A stretch of 64,000 bases of DNA. Origin: Dehalococcoidia bacterium (GTDB taxonomy: Bacteria > Chloroflexota > Dehalococcoidia > UBA6926). The notes under the pieces are model-generated. The model had not been told where the DNA came from. It worked only from the letters and a program-made list of their open reading frames with translations, and did no database searches. Positions 22,151 through 41,478 of the stretch are shown one piece after another (positions within the stretch are counted from its first letter, which is position 1; each line of letters opens with the position of its first letter). Position numbers and translations under genes: made by a program. Where the stretch lies: positions 1,468,079-1,532,078 of the forward strand of contig OZ243973.1 of assembly GCA_965214725.1 (NCBI GenBank), read 5' to 3'.

Positions 22151-24776
22151 GGACGACGACAGGCGGCAACCGCAGGGTAGTATATCGTCGTCACTGGTGC
22201 TGAGCCCTGCCACCATCTCCGAGGGCGGTGGAGACAGAGGCGCAAGTTACATCACGGCACGATTGGACAAGGCTGTAAGCACTGACGTCACATTCACCGT
22301 CTTTACCACTCCGTTGACCGACACAACCACCGCGGACTACAGAGTCAGCACAAATCAGGTTCTGACCATCGAGGCAGGAGACCTTGAGAGCAAGGACTTC
22401 GTCACCATCAGCGCCGTCGACAACAGTCAGGTTGACGGGGACAAGACAGTGCAGGTCTCGGCGACCGTGACAGGGAGCACGGAGGTCCGGGTCCCCGATC
22501 CTGAAGATCTGAGCATCGTCGATGATGACTTGACGGGAACGCCGGACGCGACTGTCGCTTTCGAGCATTTGACCTACAGTCTCGACGAGGACGGCAAGTT
22601 GAATATCTCGGTTGACTTGAGCGTTGCGCTTCAATCAGCGGCAGAGGTGCACTACCTCCTGCACGCGTCCAACTCCGTTGTCGGCAGGGATGGCGACATC
22701 ATCACCCGGTCTGACGGCCCAGATGGATGGGTCAGCACCGGAGAGCTCATCTTTGCGGCCGGAGACACCCAGCGGATAATCAGCGTCCTCCCAGTCGACA
22801 ACAATGTCGTGGAACCGGACGAAGAGATCTCCATATCGCTTCTCGTCGTGAGTGGGCAGGTGGAGGCAGGCTCTCCAACCACGGTGACGCTCACAGATGA
22901 TGATCGGAGCGTTCTCTACGTAGAGCCGTCGTTCGATGAAGTGGAAGAAGGTGAGCAAAGCGGGTTCCGCCTGCGCATGAACAAGCCCCATCAAGAGGAC
23001 GTGACCGTTGACCTCATCGTGAGTGGAACCGCTGAGGAGGGTGACGATTTCGACGCCCTACCTGCGACACTGACCTTCCCGGCAGGCGAGAGAACTATCG
23101 GTGTCACGGTCACGACCTTTGAGGACGGGATTGCAGAAGGCATGGAGACCCTCATCGTCGATCTCAGCAACGTCGTTGGCCACCACGTTGCCATCGACCA
23201 ATCATCCGGTCAGTTCAACCTCCGGATGAGCGATACGCGCGACGTCAGCCCACCCACTAACGTGAGGCTCAGCGTTAGCCCCTCACGCGTGGTGGAGGAC
23301 GCCGGCGCGACAACGCTCACAGTGACGGCCGACTTTGTGGGTAATGGAACCTTCACGACGAATACGTCTGTGGTCGTTACCGTCGGCGCGACGGGCGACA
23401 CGGCAGTTGCAGGCACCGATTACGCAAATGTTGGCACGGTTACCGTTCCCATCACGGCGCAGCAGAGCAGCGGTCAGGCGACGTTCACACTAACGCTGAC
23501 GGATGATGCTGACGTGGAGGGACTGGAAACGATTACCCTGCATGGCACAGCAAGCGGCCTCACCGTCTCGGATACGACGTTGACCATCGTGGACGATGAC
23601 TCACCCACACCACCGCCGCCACCAACGGTGACACCAACGCCGACGCCAACGGTGACACCAACGCCCACGCCGACGCCGACACCAACGGCAACTCCGACAC
23701 CGACGCCCACCGCTGTGTCACTCAGCGTTAGCCCGGCGCGCGTGCCGGAGGACGCTGGCGCCACGACAATCACGGTCACGGCAGACTTCGTCGGCTCAGG
23801 AACCTTCAACACGGATACGTCTGTAACCGTGACAATCGGGCAGGGGAGTGATGCGGCGGTCTCAGGGACCGACTACACGTCTGACGGCACGGTCACCGTG
23901 ACATTCTCGGCGGGGCAGAGCAGCGGCCAGGCCTCGTTCACGCTCACGCCAACGGACGATGTCGAAGTGGAAGGATCGGAGTCGCTCACGCTGCACGGCT
24001 CGGCAAGCGGCCTAACCGTTTCTGACACGACGGTGACCATCACCGATGACGATAAACGGATTGTCGTTGCCAGCTTGGCGCTCGCGAGCTTTGGACGTTC
24101 CTCATACAAGCTGAATGAAGACGATTCACCGGTTGAGATTACCGTGGAGCTGAGCAGCGAGCAGACCGCAGATGTGGAGATCACATACTCGATGTCTTCA
24201 GCGACGGCGGACATTGGACGCAAGGGTGATGCGTGGTCGATAGGTGGTGAAGATGGGGATTGGCGCGATGATCAGCGTCTCATCTTTGCTCCGGGTGAGA
24301 CAGAGAAGATCATCAAGGTTTACCCGGTGGACAACAATGTGGTTGAGCCGGACGAGATGGTGACCATCTCGCTGAGCGTGGCCGATGGAAATGCAACCGC
24401 AGGGCGGTCCACAGAGCTCACCCTCCTCGACGACGATCTCACAACAGTCATGCTGGAGCCTGTCGCGTCGCAGGCCAACGAGGGCGAGAGAACGGAAATC
24501 GAGCTGATGCTTAGCAAGCCACACCAGGATGAGGTCACGATGGACTGCTCCGTGCGCGGCACAGCCACATCCGGCGACGACTACGCGTACCTACCCCACA
24601 CTGTGGTGATCCCCGCCGGCAGCACCTCCGTTACCATCCCCGTGGATCTGCTGAGCGACGAGATTGCGGAAGGACCCGAGACCCTCGTCTTCATCATTTC
24701 TAACCCGGACGGCCGCGGGGTCGACATCTCCAGCGACCACTCTGAGCACACGATCACGATTGTTGATGGGGAGTGA
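1..24776 (+). CDS. Giant Calx-beta repeat protein. It is 5'-partial: the reading frame is open from window position 3, so the true start lies upstream of the window. At least 8,258 aa are encoded here. It ends in a TGA at 24774-24776.
   Basis: Frame 3 is open from nt 3 and reads [19 protein letters not shown]... before the first Met at 141. The protein consists of about 70 tandem domains of roughly 110 aa. Each carries the Calx-beta hallmarks: ...[32 protein letters not shown]...DYTA...[32 protein letters not shown]...TGTITDDD. Two subtypes alternate. A Pro-Thr linker and divergent Calx-beta-like modules follow near the C-terminus. Confidence 0.9.
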
Positions 24777-24981
24777 TCGGTTAGTGGCAGGGCGAGGCGC
24801 AGATGTCGGCGCTGATAGCCTTCCTGCCCCCATGAGCGCTCAATTGAGACTGGGCGGCGAGCAGATAACGTAACTCCATGTGCTACATTAAGGGACGTCG
24901 GGCTGCACTCGAGTAGATAGGAAAATAGGTGGTGAGACCATCTCCGGGAGGGGACGTACCCGATAAGGACGTATCGCCCTT

Positions 24982-27453
24982 ATGAATGTGCTCTTTAAGG
25001 TTCTGAACCGTCTCGTCACCGCCCGGCCATACGCTACGCTCGCCTTTCTGTTGCTCATGACGGTTGTGCTGGTGTACGGAGTGACGCTGCGCGCGCCGCT
25101 CACAGAGGGTGTTGCAAGCACCGCCTTCCTCCCCGTTGGCCACCCGCTGGCTGAGGCGGAGGACACAATCAGTGAGAACTTCGGGGGCTCCGGAGAGACG
25201 AGTGTCTCCACCATCATCTTTCGCGGAGAGACGCTGACACCAATCTCTTTGACGGAGATGGACTCGCTCCTCACAGAAATGCTTGAGGACCCGGTTGTCC
25301 GCCCCGTTCTCGCCAAGGACATTCCCGTCATCTCCGCGCCCTACCTGGTTGGCTTTGCGACCGGGACACAGGAGTTCAGCTCACTGACGCAGGCAGAGAT
25401 TGATGCCGCCTTTGACGCGCCGCAGATTGGCGAGGGACTGGACGCAATCACGGGACAGGACACAGATAGCAGCCCAGTCACGGTCACCAATCTCACCCTC
25501 ATTGAGACGGCTGATGGCAGGACGGGAGACGCGGCGCGGCGCATCCATGAGATTGCTTTGGCGCATGAGGGGACTCTAACCGTCAGCACTGTCTCACCGA
25601 TTGTCTCAGAGGATGAATACACGGAGGCGGCACAGGAGGGCATGGCGCCTCTTATCATGCTTGCCCTGCTGCTGATAACCGGGCTGCTGCTGCTATTCAC
25701 GCGGTCCGTGGCGGACATGCTGCTCACCCTGGCCGGCCTGGTTCTGGCGATTATGTGGACACTCGGGGCTGAAGGATGGCTTGGACCGAAAGGGCTGGGG
25801 TTCATCGGCCCGCCAAATGCGCTCACAACGCTCGTCCCTGTCATCATCATCAGCTTGACGGTCGACTACGCCATCCAAACGATCTCCCATTACCGAGAGG
25901 AACGCCGGGAAGGCTTTACCGTGCGTGATGCCACGCGTATCGGGTTGGGGAAAGTCGCCGTCCCGCTGACGCTGGCCGCTGTGACAACGATTGTGAGCCT
26001 GTTTGCGGCGCGCTTTTCGCCGATTACTGTTGTTGCGGATTTCGGCATCGTCGCCGGTGTTGGTGTTGCCCTTGCCCTCTTCGTGATGCTCACACTGCTT
26101 CCTGCCGGACGCGCAATCATCGATGGCCGTCGAGAGCGCCGAGGCAGCCTGTCTGAACCGCGCCCCATCTCCGGCGCGCTGCCCGGCGTCGCCCAGCTTG
26201 CTGAACTCCTTGGGCGAGAAGTCACACGACGTCCTATCCCGTACATCCTCGGCGTTCTCGCGGTAACGGCCCTGCTCGGATACGCGGCAGCCCAGCTGGA
26301 ATCACGCTTTGATTTCCGAGATTCTCTCCCGCAGAACGGCACAGCGGTCCGCAACCTGGAAACGCTTGATTCAGCCGTCGGCGGATCGACCGAGGTCGCG
26401 AGCATCATCATTGTGGCGGAGGCAACAGAAACGCGCACCCTCCTGAACGTACATGAATTGACAGAGACGTTCGCGGACCCGGTGGCGCGGCCGGACACCA
26501 TCGCCAGCCCCGTTCAGAACTCCTATGAGGTTCTGTTGCATGATTGGGCAGTCGACAGCGGTCTGCCGGGCGACAATTATGATGCCGAGATTGAGGCTAT
26601 CTATGAGGAAGCGCAGCGAGGGTTGCAGCTTGATCCAATCTTGATGCAGCGGATTCTGGATCGACTCGATGAGCTCGATCCCGCAATGGCACGCGTTCTT
26701 GTGAACAATCCTGACGGCATCGATACGATGCTGCTCCAGTTCCAGGCCTACAACGATGATTCGTCTCGTTCACAGCGCCTCCAGGGAGACATCGAAGCCA
26801 ACTGGTATGGGGAGGATGATCAGGTGACGGTCACGTCCCTGGGTGTCATCGCCTCAGCAGTGTCAGATGAGATAACCGCCGGCCAGACCCAGTCGCTCGG
26901 CACGACGGTGGCGGCGGCCTTGATTGTGCTTTCACTCTTCTTCTGGGCAACACTGCGGCAACCGGTGCTCGCCTTCATCGCCGTCATCCCAATTGTGCTT
27001 GTTCTCATCGCCGTCTTCGGCACGATGTCACTCATCGGGATACCGTACACGATGATTACGTCCATCATTTCCGCGCTCTCAATCGGTATCGGCGTGGATT
27101 ACACCATTCACATTATCCACCGCTACCGTGATGAGTACGCGGGCCTTCGTAATCCTGAACAGGCGGCAATCAAGACACTGTCAACCACGGGTTCTGCCCT
27201 GCTTGGCTCCGCGCTGACAACCGCCCTCGGCTTTGGCGTCCTGATCTTTTCACCGCTTCTTGGATCACAACACTTTGGCATCACCGCCACCATCACCATC
27301 GTCTATTCGCTGATTGCCGCAGTCCTCTTGGTGCTCCCGGCGATGGTCGTGTGGGGCGCCTATCAGAACGTGCGCCTCCGCTCAGCAGCGCTCATCTGGG
27401 CGCAGGAATTGGATCTGGAGATCGACGCAACGCTTCGCCGATCTCAACAGTGA
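24982..27453 (+). CDS. MMPL/RND-superfamily membrane transporter (putative lipid exporter).
   Basis: 823 aa. Two hydrophobic 6-TM bundles (around LLLITGLLLLFTRSVADMLLTLAGLVLAIMWTLG and IAVIPIVLVLIAVFGTMSLIGIPYTMITSIISALSIGIGVDYTIH) are separated by large soluble domains. This is the typical MMPL/RND architecture. Confidence 0.7.
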   Translation: MNVLFKVLNRLVTARPYATLAFLLLMTVVLVYGVTLRAPLTEGVASTAFLPVGHPLAEAEDTISENFGGSGETSVSTIIFRGETLTPISLTEMDSLLTEMLEDPVVRPVLAKDIPVISAPYLVGFATGTQEFSSLTQAEIDAAFDAPQIGEGLDAITGQDTDSSPVTVTNLTLIETADGRTGDAARRIHEIALAHEGTLTVSTVSPIVSEDEYTEAAQEGMAPLIMLALLLITGLLLLFTRSVADMLLTLAGLVLAIMWTLGAEGWLGPKGLGFIGPPNALTTLVPVIIISLTVDYAIQTISHYREERREGFTVRDATRIGLGKVAVPLTLAAVTTIVSLFAARFSPITVVADFGIVAGVGVALALFVMLTLLPAGRAIIDGRRERRGSLSEPRPISGALPGVAQLAELLGREVTRRPIPYILGVLAVTALLGYAAAQLESRFDFRDSLPQNGTAVRNLETLDSAVGGSTEVASIIIVAEATETRTLLNVHELTETFADPVARPDTIASPVQNSYEVLLHDWAVDSGLPGDNYDAEIEAIYEEAQRGLQLDPILMQRILDRLDELDPAMARVLVNNPDGIDTMLLQFQAYNDDSSRSQRLQGDIEANWYGEDDQVTVTSLGVIASAVSDEITAGQTQSLGTTVAAALIVLSLFFWATLRQPVLAFIAVIPIVLVLIAVFGTMSLIGIPYTMITSIISALSIGIGVDYTIHIIHRYRDEYAGLRNPEQAAIKTLSTTGSALLGSALTTALGFGVLIFSPLLGSQHFGITATITIVYSLIAAVLLVLPAMVVWGAYQNVRLRSAALIWAQELDLEIDATLRRSQQ

Positions 27454-27457
27454 CCAT

Positions 27458-28177
27458 ATGCGCGCCGCACTGGCCGCCGTCATGCTCTCGGCATTTATCC
27501 TGCCCCTTGTGGGCGCGTGCGGGGTTGAACCGACGCCAACGCCTGAGCCGGAATTGGCATATGAGGACATCCTGGAGGAGACGGACGCGCATCTGCTCTC
27601 GTTTCAGACTGCGCGCTTTCGCCTGATCGACGAGATGGAGTCCGGCGCCCCATTCTTTGGACAGACGCTGCAGAGCGTTGACGGACAAGTCGTGACGCCT
27701 GACCGGGCGCAGATCACAGCGAGCGTTGAGTCGATACTCGGATTCTTGGAGATTGGCATCATAACCATCGGTGACGATGCATTCATGCAGTTGACATCAG
27801 GCGCAGCCTGGAGGCCGCTGCCACCAGATCAGCTGCCGTTCAATCTCTCCAACGTTGGCCGGACGCTCAGTGACATGTTGCCCAAGATTCAGGGCGGTGA
27901 GGTCATCGGGCGGGAAATCGCCAACGACGCCGAATCCATCAAGATTGAAGGCGATATCGTCTCAGACGACCTCACGGGTCTGATACCTGCCGCAGACCCG
28001 GGCCATCCAATCGATCTCACCCTGTGGGTGAGCCCCGCAGACCGGAGCCTGCACCAGATCAGGATCGTTGGCGCCGTTTTTGACGAGGACGCGCCGGGCA
28101 CGAGCCGACTTATCATCCTCTCCGACTATGACCAGCCCGTTGAGATTGACGCGCCGCCTATAGCCACTGAACCGTGA
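27458..28177 (+). CDS. LprG/LppX-family lipoprotein.
   Basis: Starts MRAALAAVMLSAFILPLVGAC with a lipobox (VGAC). The C-terminal region (TLWVSPADRSLHQIRI...LSDYDQPVEIDAPP) resembles the M. tuberculosis LprG C-terminus (TVWIQETGDHQLAQAQL...LSKWGEKVQVTKPP). The ATG at 27458 lies 5 nt after the MMPL stop. The ORF-track start at 27314 overlaps the MMPL gene out of frame and is rejected. Confidence 0.6.
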   Translation: MRAALAAVMLSAFILPLVGACGVEPTPTPEPELAYEDILEETDAHLLSFQTARFRLIDEMESGAPFFGQTLQSVDGQVVTPDRAQITASVESILGFLEIGIITIGDDAFMQLTSGAAWRPLPPDQLPFNLSNVGRTLSDMLPKIQGGEVIGREIANDAESIKIEGDIVSDDLTGLIPAADPGHPIDLTLWVSPADRSLHQIRIVGAVFDEDAPGTSRLIILSDYDQPVEIDAPPIATEP

Positions 28178-29628
28178 ACAGCGTCCGGTCCCGCCTCGCG
28201 CCGCTTGGCTCATCCCGAGCGGCCATCCTGGCGATTGTCTGCTTAAGCGTCTTCTCGACGGCGCTTGATCAGACGGTGGTGTTGGCGGCGCTGCCGACAG
28301 TCATGCTGGACCTCAAGCTCTCACTCTCTGACCTTGATACGGCCGCCTGGATCGTCACCGGGTATCTGATTGGCTACACGGTGGTCATGCCGCTTGCGGG
28401 GCGGCTGTCAGACATCCATGGCCGCGTGAGGGTGTTCCAGGCCGCGCTGCTCATCTTTGCGATTGGCTCCGCATTCGTCGCTGTCGCACCCAATTTCGGC
28501 TGGATTGTTGCCGCCCGTGTCGTACAGGCCATCGGCGGTGGCGCAACGCTGCCGATTGGGCTGGCAATGGCCATGGCGGTGGTTGCGCCCGGGCAGCGGG
28601 GCATGGCGCTCGGACTGGTGGCCGCATCGGCGGAGGCGGGCGCCGTTCTCGGCCCGATCTACGGAGGAGCGTTGATTGAGTGGGTGGGCTGGCGGCTCAT
28701 CTTCTGGCTGGACATCCCGCAGAGCCTGCTGCTCATCGCCGTGCTGGCCATTCTCCGGAATCACGCCACGCCCGGGGCGCGTATGGACTACGCAGGCACG
28801 GCGCTGCTTGGCGCGACGCTCACCGTTGTGACAATCGGCCTATCACAACGCGCGATTTTCTCATTGGATTCCGCCTTCCCCTACATCATGCTCGCGCTGG
28901 GCGCCGTGTTGGCCATCGCATTCGTCTTCATTGAGCGACGTTCAGCGCAGCCCCTCATCGCCCCCTTTCTCTACAAATCGGGAGCCTTTGTGTCTGCCAA
29001 CATGACCCAACTGATGGCGGGGATGTCTCTCATCATTGCGCTGGTCGGCGTCCCGCTTATGGCCAATACAATCATGGAGAAAGGGGACTGGGAGAGCGCC
29101 CTGCACCTGGCACGACTGATGGTGGCCATTCCGGTGGGCGCGGCGGTGGGCGGATATATCCTGCGGTGGACGCCCGCCCGTCCCATAGTCATAACGGGAT
29201 TGGTCCTTATCGGAATCGGACTGCTGTTTATGAGCGGGTGGGAGAGAGATGTTGACGAGCTCCGGTTAACCGCGCCCCTCTTGATGGCCGGGCTCGGTTT
29301 CGGGCTCATCTTGCCGCCAATCAGCGTCACAGCCCTCAGCGCCGCGCCAAGCGACTACTGGGGCACGGCCGCGTCATTGGTCACCGCTGCGCGAATGGTC
29401 GGCATGGCCATTGGGCTTGCCGCGCTCTCCGCCTGGGGCATTGAGCGGTTCTATAACCTGACGGCGGGCATGTCGATTGGGCCGTCATTGGACGAGGCGG
29501 AGGGGGCGCTTATCGGGGCAGGGGTGAGTGTCTTTCAAGACCTGTTCATGATTGCCGGACTCATCTCGCTTCTCGCCATTCTGCCCGCCTTGTTCATGAG
29601 GATGGAGCCTGTAACCGCCGACTCTTAG
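28174..29628 (+). CDS. MFS transporter, 14-TM DHA2-like (P55-like efflux pump).
   Basis: 484 aa and hydrophobic throughout. MFS motif region around GRLSDIHGRVRVF. The GTG start overlaps the lipoprotein stop (GTGA at 28174-28177). Confidence 0.7.
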   Translation: MNSVRSRLAPLGSSRAAILAIVCLSVFSTALDQTVVLAALPTVMLDLKLSLSDLDTAAWIVTGYLIGYTVVMPLAGRLSDIHGRVRVFQAALLIFAIGSAFVAVAPNFGWIVAARVVQAIGGGATLPIGLAMAMAVVAPGQRGMALGLVAASAEAGAVLGPIYGGALIEWVGWRLIFWLDIPQSLLLIAVLAILRNHATPGARMDYAGTALLGATLTVVTIGLSQRAIFSLDSAFPYIMLALGAVLAIAFVFIERRSAQPLIAPFLYKSGAFVSANMTQLMAGMSLIIALVGVPLMANTIMEKGDWESALHLARLMVAIPVGAAVGGYILRWTPARPIVITGLVLIGIGLLFMSGWERDVDELRLTAPLLMAGLGFGLILPPISVTALSAAPSDYWGTAASLVTAARMVGMAIGLAALSAWGIERFYNLTAGMSIGPSLDEAEGALIGAGVSVFQDLFMIAGLISLLAILPALFMRMEPVTADS

Positions 29629-30320
29629 GTTGAGCGGGGTGTCCATGCGCGCATGCGTTTACCGTGGAAGAATTTTCCGGTCACGCCCGGTGGGCGAGTC
29701 ACAATAGAGAGCGCGCCCTCAGCAGACCAGCGTGGATCGCCCGGCGCAGTCGGTGACATATCCGTTCGCACCCACCCCGGTGACATCGCGTTCACCGCAA
29801 CCGTGCCGCGCAGCTCGTTGGCCGTTGCGAGAGTAAGGGCGTGGAGCGCCGCCTTTGAGACACCATACGAGTTCCGGAGTCCCGGGCCGAGAATGCCCAT
29901 CGTTGATCCGATGTTGAGGACGCGCGGATGATTTGAGCGACGCAAAAGCGGCAGGAGCCGCTTCGTGCAGAAATAGGCACCATGCACATTGACCTGAAAC
30001 GTCGTCAGGAAGGCGTCATCCGGGCCTGACGTTAGCCCGGAATCGCTGTTGTCGAGAACGCCCGCATTGTTCACCAGAATGTCGACGGCGCCCCATTCGC
30101 GCTGTGCCCACGCGGCGATACGGTCGACATCCATCGGATCAGACACATCCGCCTTGAGGGTGAGCAAGGCGGGGAGATGCTCCTTCGCTTCATCGAGCTT
30201 TGCGGCGCTCCGGGACACGGCCAGGACATGCGCCCCCTCTGCCAGAAACAGCTCAGAGATCTGGTAGCCGATGCCGCGGCTGCCGCCTGTGATAATGACC
30301 CGTTGTCCTTTGAGTTTCAT
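29625..30320 (-). CDS. Short-chain dehydrogenase/reductase (SDR) family oxidoreductase.
   Basis: N-terminal Rossmann motif ITGGSRGIG, an NNAG motif (VNNAGV) and a Y...K catalytic pair (YGVSKAAL). Confidence 0.8.
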   Translation of the reverse strand: MKLKGQRVIITGGSRGIGYQISELFLAEGAHVLAVSRSAAKLDEAKEHLPALLTLKADVSDPMDVDRIAAWAQREWGAVDILVNNAGVLDNSDSGLTSGPDDAFLTTFQVNVHGAYFCTKRLLPLLRRSNHPRVLNIGSTMGILGPGLRNSYGVSKAALHALTLATANELRGTVAVNAMSPGWVRTDMSPTAPGDPRWSAEGALSIVTRPPGVTGKFFHGKRMRAWTPRST

Positions 30321-30448
30321 GCGGGATCCCCCTCTTATTCAGTGCGTCAATTGTGCGCAATTTCGGCGCAGTATGCACCCACCATTCAGTATTCATGGTC
30401 AGAGGCCGCGATCGCGCTATTGTACAATTCGCATCAAGACGGGAGGGC

Positions 30449-31387
30449 TTACGAGCTGAGGTTTGTCGGCACGCGGGTTATACGCAAGACAAAGTGCTCG
30501 GGGGTCGGGTCGATTCTTGCCGCCCGATCAGTGACCATGCCGAGCGCGTAGCCGATGGCGCTGGGGCCCCACTCAGGAAGGGAAACGGACAGGCCTTTTT
30601 CATAGGGCGACAAGGACAGCATAAACGGCCATTTTCCCCCTAAGCCTCTGGGGGCATACTTCTTAGGCAGATCAACCATCGGCCCGAGCCGGAATTGTCC
30701 GGTCTTTAGCGTCAGGCGCTCGGTAATCGTCAAGGGGTCAGCATGGAGTCCGAACAGCCCTGCGTCGAATGCGATGATCGCCTCTGTTCGCTGCGTCGAG
30801 CTGGTGTTGAACCAATTGGGAGCGGCTGTAAAGCGCTCCTTACGTGGGTCAAAGCCGGTGCCTAAGACCTGGATACCCGTCAGTTCCACTTTGCCGAATC
30901 GGCTCAACGAATCATAGAAACACTGAATGAGCGCCGGCAGGACAGGAGCCGGATCCCAAGACCGTTGATGCCATCCCGCATTGACGTAATGCTTGCCGCC
31001 GGGCGGGGGAGGAGGTGTAGGTTCGGAGGGCACAAGTGGCCCGAAGCCCACATTGACATTTATAAATCCGATGCGGTCATCGCCGTCCCCGGCAGTAGTC
31101 AACTCAGCCTCATGCATCTCCCACAGCGGCTCAGGTCTACTGCCGGCCTTGTTAGACCACCCCGTTGACCATCCCAATATTTCGGCCTGTTCTTCGAAGA
31201 CACCAAAGAAGAGATCTTCCCTTCCATCCTCCAGAATGCGGCCAGCCAAGTCATCGTCTTTCTCCAGTTTCCCAAAGGCCTCAACGTAGAGCAGGCCGGA
31301 CATAAGGAATCTACGGCCTGGGGCGACAGTTAAGCTGCGCCGCATTCGTGACTTTGAAGGGCAGGTCCCACGTATCAACAAGATCAA
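30449..31387 (-). CDS. Hypothetical protein. Start is uncertain; the internal Met at about 31303 is possible.
   Basis: Long ORF with ordinary amino-acid composition. Contains a PTPPPPPGG tract. No family was recognised. Confidence 0.4.
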   Translation of the reverse strand: MILLIRGTCPSKSRMRRSLTVAPGRRFLMSGLLYVEAFGKLEKDDDLAGRILEDGREDLFFGVFEEQAEILGWSTGWSNKAGSRPEPLWEMHEAELTTAGDGDDRIGFINVNVGFGPLVPSEPTPPPPPGGKHYVNAGWHQRSWDPAPVLPALIQCFYDSLSRFGKVELTGIQVLGTGFDPRKERFTAAPNWFNTSSTQRTEAIIAFDAGLFGLHADPLTITERLTLKTGQFRLGPMVDLPKKYAPRGLGGKWPFMLSLSPYEKGLSVSLPEWGPSAIGYALGMVTDRAARIDPTPEHFVLRITRVPTNLSS

Positions 31388-31488
31388 CGTTTACGATACT
31401 TCGGGTTTGCATTACCATCGCCTCCTCTCAGCAACTCTCCTGCATCTGTTTGGTGTGAACTCTACGCGGAACTTTTCTGCTGTCAAGC

Positions 31489-33291
31489 TTGGGAATGGCC
31501 ACAGACCGCGCTATTGTACAATTCACATCAAGACGGGAGGCTGCCCGAGCCTTGACTTCACGCGGCGAGGAACTACCGATTCAGCATGAGCCGGATGAGC
31601 CGACATCCCTTCGGGTTACGCTGGTGGTGGGCGCGCAAGGCGCCATGCTCATCATCGCCCCCACCGTGCTCAACACAACGGTGGCGATTCAGGCGTCTGC
31701 ACTCGATGACGCCTACCTCGCATGGGGAGTCTTTGCCGCTCTGGTGATTGCCGCAGCCGTGACCGGGCTGCAGGCAGTACAGTTCTGGCGATTTGGCGGG
31801 GGACACATCGTTCTCACGTCCCCGGCCGCGCTCTTTATCGCTGTCATGGCCGCCGCCGTCTCCTCCGGCGGCCCGTCGCTCTTTGCGACGCTCCTGATTA
31901 TCTCCTGCATCGTCCAGATTGGCCTCGCATTCTGGCTGCCACTCCTACGCAGGATATTCACACCCGTCGTCATCGGCACGGTGACGATGCTTATTGCCGT
32001 CAGCGTGCTGCCGATCGCATTCAGCAGCATGCAGAACCTGCCGGACGACGCGCCGACCATCTCCGGCCCGCTCATGGTGGCGGCGACGCTGAGTGTCTCG
32101 GTCATCATGACGCTGCGAGCCAGAGGGAGATGGCGCCTTGCGGGACCCGTCATCAGTATTGTGGCCGGCTACATGGTGGCAGCCGCGTTCGGTTTGGTTG
32201 AAACGGAACGTATTGGCCTCGCCCCCTGGTTTGGCATCCCGGAGGTGCCGCACATTGGCCTCGATCTGACATTCGGCACAGAGTTCTGGGCGCTCCTACC
32301 CTCATTCGCCATCCTGACCCTTGTGCTTGGCATCAAGACGATCAGTGATGGTGTTGCAATCCAACAGGGGTCGAGGCGGCGGCAGCGCGCAATCGATTTC
32401 AGACAGATTCAGGGCATGGTCAGCGTGAACGGGATCGGCATGCTGCTGGGCGGCATCTCAGGCACGCTTCCGCCCATGTCCTATTCCTCGTTCAGCCTCT
32501 CACTGATTAGCCTCACGGGAATCGCCGCCCGTCGTGTGGGAATCAGTGTTGCGATCGTGATTCTTCTCTTCGCCCTTTTTTCAAAGGTCACCGCCTTGCT
32601 GTTAACCATTCCAGGCCCGGTGCTTGGGGCATATCTCATGCTCGCCATGGGCATGCTCTTCGTCAGCGGCATGCAAACCATTCTCCGTGAGGGCCTGAAT
32701 CAGAAGCGCGTCCTCATTGTCGCGATTGCCGGAGGCATGGGCATTGGCCTGCACAACCACCCCATCATGGTGGACCTGTTTGGCAATGTCATGGGCAATC
32801 TGCTCGGCAACGGGGCAACCATCAGCGCGATCGTCGCGATTGGCCTGACATTCGTGTTGGAATCACTCGGATCACGCCTATCCCGTCTTGAGGTCACGCT
32901 GCAGACATCCTCACTGCCTGCAATCGACGAATTTCTCACGGGCCTGGCAAGCGAGTTGGGGTGGAGCGAGGCATCCACGGCACGGCTGCGTGCCGCAGGG
33001 GAGGAGGCGCTCGCCAGCCTGCAGGCGTTGGGCGACTCCTCAGAGAGCGCAACGCCACCCCGGCTCATCATCAAAGCACGGCCACAGGGGCGGGCTGTGG
33101 AGCTGGAGTTTGTCGCCACGACGAGGCAAGAGAACATTGAGGATCAGCTGGCGTATCTGACGGATGAGGGCGCCATTCCGACAACAGAAGACCTGCCGCT
33201 CCGGCTCTTGCGGTATCACTCCTCCGCCGTGCGCCACGAGAGATTCTTCGGCGTGGACATCGTCACCGTCCTGGTGGAGGGCGGAGCCTAA
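31489..33291 (+). CDS. NCS2 (xanthine/uracil permease family) nucleobase transporter with an extra ~150-aa C-terminal soluble domain. Start is uncertain; the likely start lies around 31607-31648.
   Basis: Multi-TM region. The segment VNGIGMLLGGISGTLPPMSYSSFSLSLISLTGIAARRVGISVAIVILLF aligns with the NCS2 signature region (DGLxxxLAGLFGGxPxTTFxQNxGVIxLTGVASRYVG). The C-terminal domain (RLIIKARPQGRAVELEFVATT...) was not identified. Confidence 0.55.
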   Translation: MGMATDRAIVQFTSRREAARALTSRGEELPIQHEPDEPTSLRVTLVVGAQGAMLIIAPTVLNTTVAIQASALDDAYLAWGVFAALVIAAAVTGLQAVQFWRFGGGHIVLTSPAALFIAVMAAAVSSGGPSLFATLLIISCIVQIGLAFWLPLLRRIFTPVVIGTVTMLIAVSVLPIAFSSMQNLPDDAPTISGPLMVAATLSVSVIMTLRARGRWRLAGPVISIVAGYMVAAAFGLVETERIGLAPWFGIPEVPHIGLDLTFGTEFWALLPSFAILTLVLGIKTISDGVAIQQGSRRRQRAIDFRQIQGMVSVNGIGMLLGGISGTLPPMSYSSFSLSLISLTGIAARRVGISVAIVILLFALFSKVTALLLTIPGPVLGAYLMLAMGMLFVSGMQTILREGLNQKRVLIVAIAGGMGIGLHNHPIMVDLFGNVMGNLLGNGATISAIVAIGLTFVLESLGSRLSRLEVTLQTSSLPAIDEFLTGLASELGWSEASTARLRAAGEEALASLQALGDSSESATPPRLIIKARPQGRAVELEFVATTRQENIEDQLAYLTDEGAIPTTEDLPLRLLRYHSSAVRHERFFGVDIVTVLVEGGA

Positions 33292-33597
33292 CCCGTGATC
33301 GTGCCGGGCTGCCGTCCACGCCCGGGATCACGCGGTACATCGCCGAGCGCGATCGTGTTTGAGGTGACGATCTCGTGCAATGACCGTGCGAATCCAGATT
33401 TGCTCAGCTTGGTATAATAAATTGAACAATGTTTTGAACCATGTTCGAAACAGGGAGCGCGGAAGACAGACATGCTCGTCGGCAAGACGACAGTCCGGAT
33501 TGGAGACCACATAGGGGACAAGCCCACCTAGGAGATAATTGGCATGCACCAAGAGCATACCGCCCACTCCAACTCTTGGAGACTCGGCACGAGAAGC

Positions 33598-36500
33598 ATG
33601 AATGGTTTCAGCTGGAGACTCTCCGTGGTCACGCTGGCCGTCTTGGCCCTGGTGATCACGGCGTCAGCCGGGCTGTGGCTGGTTAACCCGCCACAGGACG
33701 CTGCCGCGCAAACCGCGCTGCCGGAACTCAAGATCGCCGCCGCCACTGCCACCGTGGCCGAGGGCGGCGAGCTGAGATTCACCATCTCCGCCAGCGATCC
33801 GACGCTGGACCGCGACCTCACCGTGAACCTGCAGGTCACCGAGGACACCAGTCAGGGCCGAACCTACCTCGCCGCCTCGGAGCGCGGCTCCAAACGGGCC
33901 GTCCTCTACGCCGGCATGGAGACCGGAACCTTCACGGTCAAAACCGTCGACGACAATAACGACGAGCACGACGGCGCTGTTACCGTGACGCTGCGCCCCG
34001 GGAACGGCTACACCGTGGGCGCCACCAACGCCGCCACCGGCACGGTGACCGACAAAGACGGCACCCATGTGACTCTGACTATTGGCAAAAGCATTATTCC
34101 GGAGAACGGCGGCAAGACCGACATCACGTACCGACTCCGGGGGCCGCTGAAAGCGGGTCAAACCATCGCGTTCAAGGCTGGGACCGGACGTGATTCTAAT
34201 GGAAGACAAGGCGTCGACTGGACCCTCCAGAAGAAGCCGGGCGCCGACAACACTGGCGTGACGCTATCCGCCAGCGGGACTGTCAACGGGGTTACCGCCA
34301 CCGCGCGGAACCCGATTGTGACCATGACCGGCGCCGGCGTACGGGAAGCCAAGCTCGAGCTGACCGCCGTTGACGATACTGCGACCAGCAATCGGCGAAT
34401 CACTTGGTTTGTTGGCAGTAACGGTGGCATCAGCAACATCTTTGTGCAGACCCTCGGTGGCGCCCAGGGTAGCTTCAGGGTCAGCGGGCGCAATCACATC
34501 TATCTCATAGACGACGATAACCCTCCCGCACCCGTAATCGGCTTTTCGAGAAATGCTTTCAGCGGCAACGAGAATGGGGGCCTTGTTCAGCCGGTTGTCA
34601 ACTTTTCCAGAGTCGCCACGCCGGAATTCGAGCTGCCGCTGACCTTCACTGCCGGCACTGCAACGGAAGGCGCGGACTACCATGAGCCTGGTCCGCAAAT
34701 TGTAGATCTGTCAAGCAGTTCTAGTACTGGATTGAGTTTTGACATCCACCTAATCGATGACAAGCATAAGGAGGGCGCCGAAACCCTCACGGTCGCCATC
34801 GACATGGACGCCCTGCCGGACCTCAATGGCAATAGCGAAGGCAATGGCTGGGTTGCCGGGGATCACACGACCGCAACCATCACCATCAATGATAACGACA
34901 GCGATGTTCACGCCTCGATCAGCGCCCTCGATAACATCGCAACCGAGGGCAGCTCCAGCGACAAGGCCACCTTCCGAGTCAGCCTCGACTCCGTGCGGGG
35001 CGCGGCGGGACCGTTGACCGACGGCGACAGCGCCAGGATCAACTTTGCCTTCCTCGGCGGCGCTCATGGTAAGGACTTCGATGTCAATCTGTTGACCAAC
35101 CACCCCACGCTGTCATCCGACGGCGCTTCCGTGAAATTCAACCCCAACGCCGTCAGTCCGGCGCAGGACACGCCACTATTCGCCGACTTCGAGTTGATCG
35201 CCCGGCAGGACCTGGACGCCATCGACGATCTGGTGAGGGTGCAGCTGGCCGTAATCGTGGCCGGCGCCGGCACTCCCACGGGCTCGGCGAGCGGCGAAGC
35301 CCGCATCACCCTGCGGGACGATGACCAGAAAGCGACGGGTCTGCGCATGCGCGGAGAGCTGGATGGTCCCATTGCTGACGACGACGGCGCTTTCAGGATC
35401 GGCGAGGGCAGCGGCGAAACCTTGGTGTTCGGCCTTACGCAGGCGCCAACTGCTGCCGTGAACGCGGATGCGTCCATCATCTCCGGCAGCCACGCTGCCT
35501 CCATCACGTCCGGCGCCACCAACCAGGTGGTGGTGGGCAATAGCTTCTGCTACTCGCGCTGTCCCTGGCGAGTGTGGTTCGACTACAACTACGGCGATCC
35601 GCAGAACAGTACATTGAACGGGTATCGGATTGACATCGCCGGCACGGAGGACATCGCCACCGTGCTCACCGACGACGTGACGCTGCGGATCGCCCTCCGC
35701 TCGGCCGACAAGAACTACGACGGCGCCGTGTATGAATACCCCATCAAGGTGATTGACAACGATCAGCCCATCAGCGTGGAGCTCGTGAGCACCAGCGCGG
35801 TCGACCTGCCGGAAAGCCGCAACGGCCGCATCAGGCTGGGGGTGCGGGCATCGCGTCCGGTTCACACCGGGTTGACGCCGCAGCTGACCTGGCCCGACCC
35901 GTCGGACACCGGCCACTTCACCCCGGCCCAGGACATCGACATCGCCGTGGAACCGATACCGGTGGGCGGCGACATGGCTTACATCTACCTCGACTCCAAC
36001 GACGACAACGTCGCTGAGGCGGAAGCGTCAGCAACGGCTACCATGTCCCTGGAGGAAACGGTTGCAGGCGTAACCGTGGACCAGACGCGCAACACCTTCC
36101 TGCTCCGGCACAGCGATGATGACAATCTGAACATCCGGCTGATCAAACGCTACGCCTCGGACAACACAGTCAGCTACGCGGTGTACTTCACCCGTCCGGT
36201 GGACTATGCCATTGAGCTGGTCCTGAAGGGCAAGAACAGCAACAATGACCGCATCCTGGGCATGCCCAGCACGGTGACTCAGAATAACCCCAACCTCACC
36301 AGCCCGCACGAGTACACCATCTTCGATCCGGATCGGTACACTGCCATCATCGCGCGCACCCTAGGGGACTACACGTTCTTCGACAGCCAGGCCATCGTGG
36401 TGTCCGACGGTATTCAGCTGATCGACCACGATGACCCGGTTCCGACGACAGGTCCCCCACTGATGGCGCAAAGCAGCGAGGTGTCGCCACAGGGCACGGT

Positions 36501-37996: not shown

Positions 37997-38527
37997 TTAG
38001 CCGCCATAGCCTCCGGCGGGCCGGCCGGCGGTGGCAGCGGCCGCATCACCCTCTGCTGCCTCTGCGCCGGGCGGCTCATCTTCTGGGATCGGTTCCCATT
38101 TCACGAGAGTGACGTCATCCGTCACATCATCAAAGACGGCCTGAACGCGCTGGCCGACGGCAAGCGAGCCAGGGTCCTCCATCAGCTGTTCCTGTGGGAT
38201 GAGGACGTTGCCGGTCATGCGGGCGCCCTCATCAAGCTGAATGGTGGCGTGCACGTACGGCGCCTCCTCCGTGAACGCGGGGAAGGAGGATTGATAGACG
38301 GTTGTGTAGGAATAGACGCGGCCCCTTCCACTCACCCGTGTCCAGACGAGTTTATCTATGGGGGAGAGATCATAGGGGCAGACCTCACGCGGGAAGAAGA
38401 CGAACGTATTGCAGACGGTGCAGTACTGCACCCACAGCTCATGCTTCTTGGCGCCTTCCCAGAACGGTCGTGACACCTCCGGGTTGAGCGTCGCCTTCGG
38501 AAGCGGCTTGTTGTATTCGCTCGTCAT
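37997..38527 (-). CDS. DUF35-family Zn-ribbon/OB-fold protein (thiolase partner subunit).
   Basis: MTSEYNKPLPKATLNPEVSRPFWEGAKKHELWVQYCTVCNTFVFFPREVCPYD. The C-x2-C...C-P Zn-ribbon followed by an OB-fold is typical of DUF35. The ATG is at 38527. Confidence 0.7.
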   Translation of the reverse strand: MTSEYNKPLPKATLNPEVSRPFWEGAKKHELWVQYCTVCNTFVFFPREVCPYDLSPIDKLVWTRVSGRGRVYSYTTVYQSSFPAFTEEAPYVHATIQLDEGARMTGNVLIPQEQLMEDPGSLAVGQRVQAVFDDVTDDVTLVKWEPIPEDEPPGAEAAEGDAAAATAGRPAGGYGG

Positions 38528-38561
38528 GACTCTCTTGTCCCTCAGCGTTCCTCTGCTTGCT

Positions 38562-40320: not shown

Positions 40321-41478
40321 CTAGAGTGCGTTCTCGGAACCGAGAACCAGCGTGCACATTGTGCTCGCGGTGCCGCCTCAACCATTCACCAGGCCGAGGT
40401 CATTGCGGGCGATCTGTCTCACACCCGCCTTGCCCATGATCTGGCGCGCGCCCTCGATAACGTGTCTGAACCCACCGGCGAGGCCGGGCTGTCCGCTGGA
40501 CAGCTGGCCGCCGTCTGTGTTGATGGGAAACTCGCCGTTGTAGCGCGTATCGGTTGATTCAAAGAACGGCCCAACCTCGCCCTTGGGCATCAACCCCGCA
40601 TCCTCCAGGCACACGGCATGGAGAATGGTGTATCAATCATAGAACTGGGCAAACTGCATGTCCCGCGGCGTGTAGCCGGACATGGTGAACGCCGTGGGCG
40701 CAGACCGCGCGACTGGCGTCTCGGTCAGCTTGTCACGTTGCCAGCCGGTCAAAGGATCGGTCGCGATGCCCGCGCCAAGGACGTACACCGGGCGATTCAG
40801 GCTATGCTTGGCGCGCTCTGCGGTTGTGACAATAACGGCGGCGGCGCCGGCACACGGCATCACCGTTTCAAGCAGCTTGATGGGGTAATTGATAAAACGG
40901 GAATTCATCACATCGTCATGTGTGATGGGCTGCCCCTGGAAGACGGAGTTGGGGTTCTCCAGTGTGTTGAATCGCTCGTTGACGGCTATTTGGGCCATCT
41001 GCTCTTCAGTCGTGCCGTATTCCTCCATGTGTCGGACGTACATCATGCCGTAGCCGGTATTCGCGCCGGCTGCCATACCATACGGTTCCTCAAACTCTGA
41101 CCTCGCGCTGGGAGGCCCGCCACCCTCCGGCGGAATGACCGGGTTGCGCGCCGTGGCAATGACGACGAGCACGTAGTTGGCGAGTCCGTTCTGGACGGCC
41201 ATGGAGGCGAGCGTGACGCCCGTCGCGCCACTGGCGCCCATCATGCTGGCGCCGGTCGCGAATCGTGGGCTGATTCCGAGGTACTCGGACGCAAAGGCCG
41301 GGGACACAGTCCCGCCCTCCGTAACAAGTCCGTCTATATCCGTGAAGCGCAAATGGGCGTCATGGATAGCGATGCGGGCCACGTCACCCATGAGGCCAAC
41401 CATTGAGCGGCCAAACGTGGAGCGGGTCGTCGGCAACTCCCCGATTCCGATGATCGCTGCTTCACCACGAAGACTCAT
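40321..41478 (-). pseudogene. Thiolase-like paralog with two in-frame TGA codons (40633-40635 and 40378-40380). There is no frameshift and the frame ends at a TAG at 40321-40323. It is a probable pseudogene, or a sequence error.
   Basis: The translation runs MSLRGEAAIIGIGELP...QFAQFYD*YTILHAVCLEDAGLMPKGE...LGLVNG*GGTASTMCTLVLGSENAL. It aligns with the intact paralog end to end (...FYDAYTIIHAV... / ...LVNGNGGMASVMCTLVLGSENAL). Confidence 0.6.

What the first reader, a model, noticed from the sequence alone, without database searches (positions are those of the whole stretch)
24982..29628. MMPL transporter, LprG-like lipoprotein and MFS pump cluster immediately downstream of the giant gene
The lipoprotein and the MFS gene overlap by GTGA (28174-28177). 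The lipoprotein starts 5 nt after the MMPL stop. A lipoprotein-MFS pair with this tight coupling mirrors the mycobacterial lprG-p55 (Rv1411c-Rv1410c) operon, which is implicated in lipid and glycolipid export. The MMPL protein adds a second lipid-exporter type. Its position next to a giant surface protein suggests a cell-envelope biogenesis locus.
Basis: partly seen in the sequence, partly recalled or inferred. Interest (0 to 1): 0.5.

Follow-up and report, generated by a model that had tools for sequence, protein, structure and literature searches.

The report
LprG–P55-type lipid export operon with RND
Three tightly packed genes in an uncultured marine Dehalococcoidia (Chloroflexota) genome encode clear relatives of the mycobacterial LprG lipoprotein and P55 pump that move lipids out of the cell membrane, plus a third lipid-pump-like transporter; this is a recognisable system in an unexpected bacterial group, not a new kind of machine.

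Summary
Three same-strand genes are packed at 24982-29628: an 823-aa RND/MMPL transporter, a 239-aa lipoprotein starting 4 nt after the RND stop, and a 484-aa MFS transporter whose GTG overlaps the lipoprotein stop (GTGA, 28174-28177).

All three proposed HMM tests passed:
- MMPL: 151 bits
- LppX_LprAFG: 36 bits (cut-off 24)
- MFS_1: 145 bits

The lipoprotein model (pLDDT 86) matches M. tuberculosis LprG best (Foldseek E 1e-13). The best solved relative of the MFS is the Rv1410/P55 homologue MHAS2168 (E 2e-59, twice the next score). It keeps the functionally tested residues (D32, R115, Q118, D80, E154-R407).

In 80 related loci from Dehalococcoidia and Acidimicrobiia MAGs:
- The lipoprotein-MFS pair is near-universal, and the 4-nt overlap occurs in 48 of 64 loci.
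- An orthologous RND lies within 8 kb in about 45 loci, usually downstream and mixed with a KshA-like Rieske oxygenase, a P450 and a methyltransferase.

The RND is closer to HpnN/HAE3 than to mycobacterial MmpLs. The link to the giant Calx-beta gene is not conserved.

Verdict: a new member of the LprG-P55 kind outside Actinomycetota. Substrate unknown, moderate interest.

The parts
24982..27453 (+). RND-superfamily transporter (823 aa), MMPL/HAE3-like. It has 12 predicted TM segments and two extracytoplasmic domains of about 190 aa each. Asp-Tyr pairs lie in TM4 (D295-Y296) and TM10 (D706-Y707).
   Evidence: Pfam MMPL 151 bits, plus Patched and sterol-sensing domains. NCBIfam best hit is HAE3 TIGR00921 at 229 bits, below the 352 cut-off. 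The best PDB hit is HpnN, with D295 aligned to HpnN D344. Hydropathy and DY motifs come; the DY residues are invariant in 13 orthologues.
27454..27457 (+). 4-nt spacer (CCAT) between the RND stop and the lipoprotein ATG. No Shine-Dalgarno-like sequence is evident.
   Evidence: Sequence read directly.
27458..28177 (+). LprG-like lipoprotein (239 aa). It has a signal peptide, the lipobox L-V-G-A-C21 (Cys codon 27518-27520), a short Pro/Thr/Glu linker, and then an LppX_LprAFG domain.
   Evidence: Pfam PF07161 36 bits, cut-off 24. PDB sequence search: LprG E 5e-5 for the single sequence and 1.4e-7 for the profile. AF2 pLDDT 85.8. Foldseek top hits are LprG 3mh9/3mha/4zra, E 1e-13, TM 0.71-0.78. 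C21 is invariant in 28 sequences.
28174..28177 (+). GTGA overlap: the MFS start codon GTG overlaps the lipoprotein stop TGA (translational-coupling junction).
   Evidence: The same 4-nt overlap occurs in 48 of 64 related loci, with a GTG start in 61 of 64.
28174..29628 (+). P55/Rv1410-like DHA2 MFS transporter (484 aa, 14 predicted helices). Conserved residues: D32 (TM1), D80 (motif A), R115/Q118 (TM4), and the E154-R407 ion pair.
   Evidence: PDB best hit 8pnl (MHAS2168): E 2.4e-59, 205 bits, against 103 bits for EfpA. Identity is 37% over 419 columns. Residue roles are from PMC10576003 and PMC6519032. All of these residues are invariant in 29 homologues. TIGR00711 DHA2 scores 184 bits.
29437..29541 (+). 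Codons for residues 422-456 of the MFS. This 35-residue non-membrane segment lies between the hydrophobic cores of TM11 and TM12 and is predicted as helix-loop-helix. It is the candidate counterpart of the periplasmic TM11/TM12 extension that hands lipid to LprG.
   Evidence: Hydropathy. DSSP helices 395-430 and 439-474 come from a low-confidence model. The length matches the 31-38 residues reported for mycobacterial homologues.
29625..30320 (-). Convergent short-chain dehydrogenase gene. Its stop overlaps the MFS stop by 4 nt, which marks the 3' boundary of the transport gene set. It is not shown to belong to the system.
   Evidence: An SDR homologue is near LprG in only one related locus, L015.

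Best explanation
Genes 24982-29628 form one compact transport unit of a Dehalococcoidia (Chloroflexota) chromosome. Its core is a true homologue of the mycobacterial lprG-rv1410c (P27-P55) operon.

Proposed mechanism:
1. The proton-driven 14-helix MFS transporter extracts a hydrophobic lipid from the cytoplasmic membrane.
2. It releases the lipid on the outer face along its extended TM11/TM12 helices.
3. The lipid enters the cavity of the membrane-tethered LprG-like lipoprotein, which carries it away from the membrane.
4. The RND transporter encoded immediately upstream (MMPL/HAE3-like, with Asp-Tyr proton-relay pairs) is a second proton-driven lipid exporter. It is functionally tied to the pair and probably uses the same lipoprotein as acceptor.

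Shown here: homology, fold, conserved functional residues, gene packing and conserved neighbourhood.

Inferred, not shown: co-transcription, direction of transport, hand-over between the proteins, and the substrate. The substrate is unknown. Neutral lipid, glycolipid or a polycyclic/terpenoid-type lipid are all candidates.
For: - Family matches are above curated cut-offs for all three proteins.
- The lipoprotein has an invariant lipobox Cys. Its confident model (pLDDT 85.8) has LprG with PIM or TAG bound, LprF and LppX as nearest solved structures. The profile search ranks LprG > LprF > LppX.
- The best solved relative of the MFS is the TAG transporter MHAS2168, at twice the score of any other MFS.
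- Residues whose mutation inactivates Rv1410/MHAS2168 are all present and invariant in the family. These are the TM1 Asp, motif-A Asp and Glu-Arg ion lock. The ion lock is reported absent from 46 other characterised MFS transporters.
- A 35-residue TM11-TM12 segment matches the 31-38 residues of mycobacterial homologues.
- Gene packing: a 4-nt spacer and a 4-nt overlap, with the overlap conserved in 48 of 64 loci.
- The lipoprotein-MFS pair is adjacent in 79 of 80 loci. An orthologous RND (55-65% identity, full length) lies within 8 kb in about 45 of 80, in at least four arrangements.
- The lipoprotein evolves faster (36-64% identity) than the MFS (63-74%), as reported for mycobacteria (38-78% vs 63-87%).
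- LprG is reported to interact with the RND protein MmpL11 in mycobacteria (PMC10745849).
Against: - No expression data. The promoter/terminator scan found nothing informative.
- The MFS 3D model is unreliable (pLDDT 49.7), so the TM11/TM12 extension is supported only by sequence and secondary structure.
- The TM9-TM10 beta-hairpin of MHAS2168 has no counterpart: there is a 10-residue gap in the alignment.
- Lipoprotein identity to LprG is only about 20%, and the cavity could not be inspected.
- About 35 of 80 related loci have no RND within 8 kb, so the RND may not be obligatory.
- The host class is described as having a monoderm-type, peptidoglycan-containing envelope in a cultured member (abstract of PMC10284905). 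There is therefore no mycomembrane-like destination for the lipid.
Confidence: 0.75

Rival explanations
1. The MFS is an ordinary DHA2 multidrug/antibiotic efflux pump and the RND an independent hydrophobe efflux pump. The lipoprotein is an accessory with no lipid-carrier role.
For: The top NCBIfam match of the MFS is the generic DHA2/EmrB efflux subfamily, at 184 bits. Many drug pumps follow it (FexA, TcmA, MdtD).
Against: The score to the lipid transporter MHAS2168 is twice that to EfpA, EmrB or QacA. The Glu-Arg lock specific to Rv1410 homologues is present and invariant. The pump is fixed next to an LprG-fold lipid-binding protein in 79 of 80 loci. Rv1410 expressed in Lactococcus conferred no drug resistance (PMC6519032).
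Confidence: 0.1
2. The module handles steroid- or terpenoid-like polycyclic hydrophobic molecules rather than acyl lipids. These could be host (sponge) sterols or an endogenous modified triterpenoid. The module would work with the oxygenases found beside it in relatives.
For: In about 30 Chloroflexota loci the order is LprG > MFS > Rieske oxygenase > RND > (methyltransferase) > P450. The Rieske oxygenase is most similar over its full length to 3-ketosteroid 9alpha-hydroxylase KshA (E 1.7e-26). The P450 is fused to a GPP34 domain, and its solved relatives include CYP51 sterol demethylases. The RND is closest to the hopanoid transporter HpnN and carries a sterol-sensing-type domain. Many related MAGs have sponge-type isolate names. 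Sponges are reported to be rich in diverse sterols (PMC5790920).
Against: None of these enzymes has a homologue anywhere in this 64-kb window (tblastn). The matches to KshA, SdmA and CYP51 are far below orthologue level. The RND match to BstA is weak (37 bits). The known LprG ligands are acylated lipids.
Confidence: 0.25
3. The RND gene is next to the lipoprotein-MFS pair only by chance rearrangement and works independently.
For: The RND > LprG > MFS order is unique to this species among 82 loci. About 35 of 80 loci lack an RND within 8 kb.
Against: Orthologous RNDs are linked to the pair in about 45 of 80 loci across two phyla and in several arrangements. After the rearrangement in this lineage the RND ended only 4 nt from the lipoprotein start, while the enzyme genes were lost from the neighbourhood.
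Confidence: 0.15

Closest known systems
Mycobacterial lprG-rv1410c (P27-P55) operon: LprG lipoprotein plus the MFS triacylglyceride transporter Rv1410/MHAS2168
   Same: Same two-gene order (lipoprotein then MFS) with tight coupling. The lipoprotein has a lipobox and an LprG fold. The MFS is a 14-helix DHA2 type with the TM1 Asp, motif-A Asp and Glu(TM5)-Arg(TM11) lock, and a TM11-TM12 segment of about 35 residues. The lipoprotein diverges faster than the pump.
   Different: The host is Dehalococcoidia (Chloroflexota), not Mycobacteriales, so there is no mycomembrane. Identity is only 37% (MFS) and about 20% (lipoprotein). There is no counterpart of the TM9-TM10 beta-hairpin (10-residue gap). 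An RND gene joins the unit. The substrate is unknown.
LppX with MmpL7 in the M. tuberculosis PDIM locus: an LppX_LprAFG lipoprotein working with an RND/MmpL exporter (from my own knowledge, Sulzenbacher et al. 2006)
   Same: An LppX_LprAFG-fold lipoprotein is genomically associated with an MMPL-type RND lipid exporter.
   Different: The lipoprotein here ranks closer to LprG than to LppX. The RND is HAE3/HpnN-like rather than HAE2 MmpL. No polyketide lipid synthesis genes are nearby.
HpnN, the hopanoid RND transporter of the HAE3 group, and BstA, the bacterial sterol RND transporter
   Same: HpnN is the best solved relative of the RND. D295 aligns with HpnN D344 in TM4. The topology is 12 TM segments with two outer domains.
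   Different: The scores are low: 56 bits to HpnN and 37 bits to BstA against curated cut-offs of 752-1400. The RND also has a second Asp-Tyr pair in TM10 where HpnN has Ala-Phe. No hopanoid or sterol synthesis genes are in the window.
MmpL11-LprG interaction in mycobacteria (PMC10745849)
   Same: It is a precedent for an LprG-type lipoprotein contacting an RND lipid exporter.
   Different: In mycobacteria the genes are unlinked, and that paper found no functional crosstalk. Here the genes are adjacent.

Membership tests
LppX_LprAFG / LprG lipoproteins | Match to Pfam PF07161 above the gathering score | tested here: met
   36.0 bits against a cut-off of 24, residues 70-230. 38 of 39 homologues carry PF07161.
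LppX_LprAFG / LprG lipoproteins | Signal peptide with a lipobox cysteine for lipid anchoring | tested here: met
   MRAALAAVMLSAFILPLVGA-C21. The Cys is invariant in 28 sequences.
LppX_LprAFG / LprG lipoproteins | LolA-like alpha/beta fold closest to LprG, LprF and LppX | tested here: met
   AF2 pLDDT 85.8, pTM 0.79. The top 9 Foldseek PDB hits are LprG, LprF and LppX (E 1e-13 to 4e-10, target TM 0.69-0.78). RseB and LolA follow at E of about 1e-6.
LppX_LprAFG / LprG lipoproteins | Large hydrophobic cavity that binds triacylated lipids (TAG, PIM, LM/LAM) | not testable with these tools
The only evidence is that V90 aligns with LprG V91, the pocket residue mutated in 3mh9.
Rv1410/P55-type MFS lipid transporters | DHA2-type MFS with 14 helices (TMA/TMB linker helices) | tested here: met
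   The best NCBIfam hit is TIGR00711 DHA2, at 184 bits but below the 230 cut-off. There are 14 long helices in the DSSP of the model and matching hydropathy peaks.
Rv1410/P55-type MFS lipid transporters | Closest characterised relative is Rv1410/MHAS2168 rather than a drug pump | tested here: met
   8pnl: E 2.4e-59, 205 bits. Next is EfpA at 103 bits. Identity is 37%.
Rv1410/P55-type MFS lipid transporters | Functionally essential residues: TM1 Asp (D22 Mtb / D35 MH) with TM4 Arg/Gln; motif-A Asp (D70 Mtb); Glu(TM5)-Arg(TM11) ion lock (E147/R417 Mtb) | tested here: met
   D32, R115, Q118, D80, E154 and R407 are at the aligned positions. All are invariant in 29 family members.
Rv1410/P55-type MFS lipid transporters | Periplasmic helical extensions of TM11 and TM12 (31-38 residues) | tested here: inconclusive
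   There are 35 residues (422-456) between the hydrophobic cores, predicted as 36-residue helices 395-430 and 439-474 with an 8-residue loop. This is consistent in length and secondary structure, but the 3D model is low confidence (pLDDT 49.7).
Rv1410/P55-type MFS lipid transporters | [quoted passage not shown] | tested here: not met
   There is a 10-residue gap in the query opposite MHAS2168 'hdlgfvslpt'. The loop is only about 7 residues long and has no strand in the model. The paper describes the hairpin for MHAS2168 but does not show it to be essential.
Rv1410/P55-type MFS lipid transporters | Encoded directly downstream of the LprG-type lipoprotein in one operon | tested here: met
   GTGA overlap. 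The genes are adjacent in 79 of 80 related loci. Transcription was not tested.
MMPL / HAE-type RND lipid transporters | Pfam MMPL domain; 12 TM segments with two large extracytoplasmic domains | tested here: met
   PF03176 at 151 bits, with two matched stretches. Hydropathy gives TM1, a loop of about 185 aa, TM2-6, TM7, a loop of about 200 aa, then TM8-12.
MMPL / HAE-type RND lipid transporters | Proton-relay Asp(-Tyr) in TM4 and TM10 | tested here: met
   D295-Y296 and D706-Y707 are invariant in 13 orthologues. D295 aligns to HpnN D344. The equivalence to the MmpL3 Asp-Tyr pairs is from my own knowledge and was not aligned here.
MMPL / HAE-type RND lipid transporters | Membership of a curated subfamily (HAE3 TIGR00921, MmpL/ActII TIGR00833, HpnN, BstA, MmpL3) | tested here: not met
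   Scores against cut-offs: 229.5 vs 351.9; 164.6 vs 874.7; 122.5 vs 751.9; 36.7 vs 1400; 26.8 vs 1400. This is an unassigned RND subfamily nearest to HAE3/HpnN.

The most novel reading that the evidence does not exclude
The RND, the LprG-like lipoprotein and the P55-like MFS form a three-part lipid-trafficking module specific to marine, largely sponge-associated Dehalococcoidia and Acidimicrobiia, and exchanged between those two phyla. In most genomes it is physically tied to a KshA-like Rieske oxygenase, a GPP34-P450 fusion and a lipid-type methyltransferase. On this reading the module moves an oxidised or methylated polycyclic or otherwise unusual lipid across the envelope of bacteria that have no outer membrane. 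That lipid could be self-made or derived from host sterols. If so, LprG-P55 systems would be general lipid conveyors rather than a mycomembrane speciality.
Probability: 0.25. Interest if true: 0.65.

Novelty: new member of a known kind. Interest (0 to 1): 0.4.

Why it matters
LprG-Rv1410 is studied almost only as a mycobacterial virulence and mycomembrane-building system. Here a clear homologue keeps the same functional residues and the same translationally coupled gene junction. It is widespread in uncultured marine Dehalococcoidia and Acidimicrobiia, and it is repeatedly linked to an HpnN-like RND. This shows that the lipoprotein-plus-MFS lipid hand-over design is older or more mobile than the mycolate envelope.

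It also offers comparative material: conserved versus variable residues, and loss of the TM9-10 hairpin. The linked oxygenase genes in relatives give a concrete lead to the unknown substrate. No paper in the searched library mentions LprG together with Chloroflexi. However, public automatic annotation already labels these proteins correctly, so the finding extends a known system rather than surprising anyone.

Tried and rejected
- **MFS structure prediction.** A 29-sequence alignment gave only pLDDT 49.7. The homologues are 67-75% identical and too uniform. I used only its secondary structure and ran no fold search on it.
- **Lipoprotein cavity.** Model coordinates are not exposed to scripts, so the cavity could not be measured.
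- **Promoter/terminator scan of 24600-30500.** The counts were no different from shuffles, and no site fell in an intergenic position.
- **Rfam scan of 24500-31600.** No match.
- **Folding of the 205-nt giant-gene/RND spacer.** No better than shuffles, z = +0.85.
- **Giant Calx-beta gene as part of the system.** Rejected: no homologue of its C-terminus lies near the pair in 80 loci.
- **SDR, hyp312 and NCS2 neighbours as part of the system.** Rejected as not conserved: 1, 2 and 1 loci respectively.
- **The enzyme genes seen in relatives (Rieske oxygenase, P450, methyltransferase), searched for in the window.** None found at E <= 1e-5.
- **Rieske enzyme as sterol demethylase SdmA.** Only 38 bits against a 600 cut-off, so not an orthologue.
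- **Literature search for LprG with Chloroflexi.** No papers.
- **Recent horizontal acquisition by composition.** GC of 24-30 kb (0.59-0.63) is like the rest of the window, so composition shows nothing unusual.

Full report
**Observation.**

The region holds three same-strand ORFs.
- An 823-aa protein runs from ATG 24982 to TGA 27451-27453.
- A lipoprotein gene follows. Its biologically sensible start is ATG 27458, 4 nt (CCAT) after the upstream stop. It ends at TGA 28175-28177.
- A 484-aa protein starts at GTG 28174, so the two genes share GTGA at 28174-28177. It ends at TAG 29626-29628.

The mechanical ORF list extends the lipoprotein ORF to TTG 27314, inside the upstream gene. ATG 27458 is supported on three grounds. 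It gives a signal peptide ending in the lipobox LVGA-C21. It agrees with 27 homologues, in which that Cys is invariant. It is the start called independently on two 97%-identical contigs.

**What the proteins are.**

- MMPL PF03176: 151 bits
- LppX_LprAFG PF07161: 36 bits (cut-off 24)
- MFS_1 PF07690: 145 bits

*Lipoprotein.* Its only meaningful solved relatives by sequence are LprG entries. The single-sequence search gives E 5e-5. A 28-sequence profile gives LprG 1.4e-7, LprF 3e-5 and LppX 0.035. An AlphaFold2 model built on the family alignment is confident (pLDDT 85.8, pTM 0.79). Its nine best Foldseek hits in the PDB are LprG (apo, PIM-bound, TAG-bound), LprF and LppX, with E 1e-13 to 4e-10 and target TM-scores of 0.69-0.78. 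The more distant LolA/RseB folds come well behind.

*MFS transporter.* Its best solved relative is 8pnl, the M. hassiacum Rv1410/P55 homologue MHAS2168. The match is E 2.4e-59, 205 bits and 37% identity over 419 columns. The next hits are EfpA at 103 bits, then EmrB and QacA. Remm et al. (PMC10576003) and Hohl et al. (PMC6519032) define the functional residues of this transporter:
- the TM1 Asp (D22 Mtb / D35 MH), hydrogen-bonded to a TM4 Arg and Gln
- the motif-A Asp (D70 Mtb)
- a Glu(TM5)-Arg(TM11) ion lock, conserved in mycobacterial homologues but absent from 46 other characterised MFS transporters

In the HMMER alignment the window protein has D32, R115, Q118, D80, E154 and R407 at these positions. 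All are invariant in 29 family members.

The hallmark TM11/TM12 periplasmic extension is 31-38 residues in mycobacteria. Its counterpart here is a 35-residue non-hydrophobic segment (422-456) between the two hydrophobic cores, predicted as two 36-residue helices joined by an 8-residue loop. The 3D model is poor (pLDDT 49.7), so this feature is consistent but not established. The small TM9-TM10 beta-hairpin of MHAS2168 has no counterpart, since there is a 10-residue gap.

*RND protein.* It has 12 hydropathy-predicted TM segments and two outer domains of about 190 aa each. Asp-Tyr pairs lie in TM4 (D295-Y296) and TM10 (D706-Y707) and are invariant in 13 orthologues. At Pfam level it is MMPL. In NCBIfam it scores best to HAE3 (229 bits), then the MmpL/ActII subfamily (165) and HpnN (122). 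All of these are below their curated cut-offs. Among solved structures, HpnN comes first for both the single sequence and the profile, with D295 aligned to HpnN D344. MmpL4/5, Patched/NPC1 and MmpL3 follow. It is best described as an unassigned RND lipid-transporter subfamily near HAE3/HpnN, not a mycobacterial-type MmpL.

**Origin and comparative context.**

The nearest lipoprotein homologues are annotated in Chloroflexota/Dehalococcoidia MAGs. A scan of species-representative genomes returned 80 loci. Most are Dehalococcoidia, including a SAR202 bin. Twelve are Acidimicrobiia, including the complete chromosome of Candidatus Spongiisocius. One is Gaiellaceae. Many isolate names are of the type used for sponge metagenome bins; that reading rests on my own recollection, not on a tool result.

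The rest of the window is ordinary chromosome: H+-PPase, GatB, CysRS, IspD, LeuRS, DnaG and RpoD. GC is uniform over the locus.

Synteny analysis by tblastn and ORF clustering gave four results.
1. The lipoprotein-MFS pair is adjacent in 79 of 80 loci.
2. The 4-nt overlap recurs in 48 of 64 scorable loci, with a GTG start in 61 of 64.
3. The MFS is more conserved (63-74% identity) than the lipoprotein (36-64%). Mycobacterial operons show the same asymmetry.
4. A full-length orthologue of the RND (55-65% identity) lies within 8 kb in about 45 of 80 loci, but almost always downstream.

The commonest order is LprG > MFS > Rieske oxygenase > RND > (methyltransferase) > P450 on the opposite strand. 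Variants lack the Rieske gene or have the RND upstream and divergent. The order seen in the window, RND > LprG > MFS, occurs only in this species. So the RND stayed linked to the pair through several rearrangements. In this lineage it ended 4 nt from the lipoprotein start, while the enzyme genes left the neighbourhood (no homologue in the 64-kb window). That is good contextual evidence that the RND belongs functionally with the pair, though it is not proof. Mycobacterial LprG has been reported to interact with the RND protein MmpL11 (PMC10745849). From my own knowledge, the paralogue LppX works with MmpL7.

**The enzymes in relatives.**
- The Rieske protein (Rieske + KshA_C domains) aligns over its full length to 3-ketosteroid 9alpha-hydroxylase KshA (E 1.7e-26). 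Its only NCBIfam hit is a weak one to sterol demethylase SdmA.
- The P450 is fused to a GPP34 domain. It is distantly related to CYP120, CYP51 and BM3-type enzymes.
- The methyltransferase is of the cyclopropane/mycolic-acid-synthase type.

Together with the HpnN-like RND, these hint at a polycyclic or otherwise modified hydrophobic substrate. Sponges are sterol-rich habitats, and a steroid pathway has been proposed, though not shown, for SAR202 (PMC5790920). All of these matches are far below orthologue level and the genes are absent from this window. I therefore keep this as a rival or extension (probability about 0.25), not as the main reading.

**Mechanism.**

The best-supported account is a proton-motive-force-driven lipid export unit built like LprG-P55.
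1. The MFS extracts a lipid from the cytoplasmic membrane.
2. It passes the lipid along the TM11/12 extension into the cavity of the lipoprotein. The lipoprotein is tethered to the outer face of the membrane by its acylated Cys and a short Pro/Thr/Glu linker. Some homologues have linkers of 40-120 residues.
3. The RND acts as a second PMF-driven exporter and probably feeds the same carrier.
4. Expression is probably coupled through the 4-nt spacer and the GTGA overlap.

Homology, fold, residues, packing and conserved linkage are shown. Co-transcription, direction, hand-over and substrate are inferred. What the lipid is for remains open. A cultured Dehalococcoidia relative is described as having a peptidoglycan-containing envelope (abstract of PMC10284905), and no mycomembrane-like destination is known.

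**What is not supported.**

The giant upstream gene is a Calx-beta repeat protein. It is called as 11,700-12,400 aa in the near-identical relative. It lies next to the transport genes only in this species, and no homologue of its C-terminus occurs in the 80 other loci. It gives no evidence for a joint 'envelope biogenesis locus'. The 205-nt spacer between it and the RND has no Rfam match, no unusual structure and no consensus promoter or terminator.

**Novelty and score.**

No paper in the searched library mentions LprG together with Chloroflexi. Public automatic annotation already names these proteins 'LppX_LprAFG lipoprotein' and 'MFS transporter'. The finding is a correctly interpreted new member of the LprG-P55 kind in another phylum. 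Its noteworthy and apparently undescribed feature is the recurrent linkage to an HpnN-like RND and, in relatives, to oxygenases. Interest is 0.4.

Noticed in passing
window 141-24776 (+): A giant ORF of 8,211 aa is built of Calx-beta repeats and has a strong positive AT skew. On two 97%-identical contigs the corresponding gene is called at 11,709 and 12,436 aa. It may therefore be longer than the window ORF suggests, or vary in repeat number.
   Followed up: partly
L001-L080, e.g. L001:8001-15971 and L022:8001-16482: A conserved six-gene cluster occurs in about 30 Chloroflexota loci: LprG > P55-like MFS > KshA-like Rieske oxygenase > RND > (CMAS-type methyltransferase) > GPP34-P450 fusion on the opposite strand. 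None of the three enzyme genes is present in the window.
   Followed up: partly
L017, L018, L020, L021, L034, L044-L046, L053, L073, L077, L080: The Acidimicrobiia (Actinomycetota) copies of the MFS fall in several separate places among the Dehalococcoidia copies in a rough NJ tree. Some are closer to the window protein than many Dehalococcoidia copies are. This suggests transfer between the two phyla, or mis-binning.
   Followed up: partly
window 29625-29628: The MFS stop (TAG 29626-29628) and the stop of the convergent short-chain dehydrogenase gene (29625-30320, minus strand) overlap tail-to-tail by 4 nt. This leaves no room for a terminator between them.
   Followed up: no
window 30449-31387 (-): A 312-aa ORF has no Pfam, NCBIfam or PADLOC match. 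Homologues at 39-41% identity lie just upstream of the LprG gene in two related loci, L048 and L054.
   Followed up: no
window 42249-46116 (-): A low-GC patch (0.53 against about 0.61) carries a 992-aa SNF2-type helicase. It scores best to the BREX/DISARM defence helicases BrxH and DrmD (311 and 294 bits). Next to it is an unknown 321-aa ORF. This may be a remnant of a defence island.
   Followed up: partly
window 37997-39719 (-) and 40633-41478 (-): A ChsH2-type DUF35 (zinc-ribbon/OB) protein overlaps an SCP-x-type thiolase gene, and a further thiolase-like ORF lies nearby. Pairs like this act in steroid side-chain degradation in Actinobacteria, but they are also widespread elsewhere.
   Followed up: no
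window 33544-37479 (+): A second large surface-type protein (1,311 aa) has Calx-beta and fibronectin type III domains. It lies 4 kb downstream of the transport genes and is also present in the near-identical relative.
   Followed up: no
P0035-P0038 (homologues of the lipoprotein): Some family members carry Pro/Thr-rich linkers of 40-120 residues between the lipobox Cys and the LprG domain. The window protein has about 12 residues there. The tether length is therefore very variable.
   Followed up: no
window 31489-33291 (+): A xanthine/uracil-type (NCS2) permease carries a C-terminal extension of about 140 residues with no Pfam match. The ORF list starts it at TTG, whereas the relative's gene call is 21 residues shorter.
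   Followed up: no
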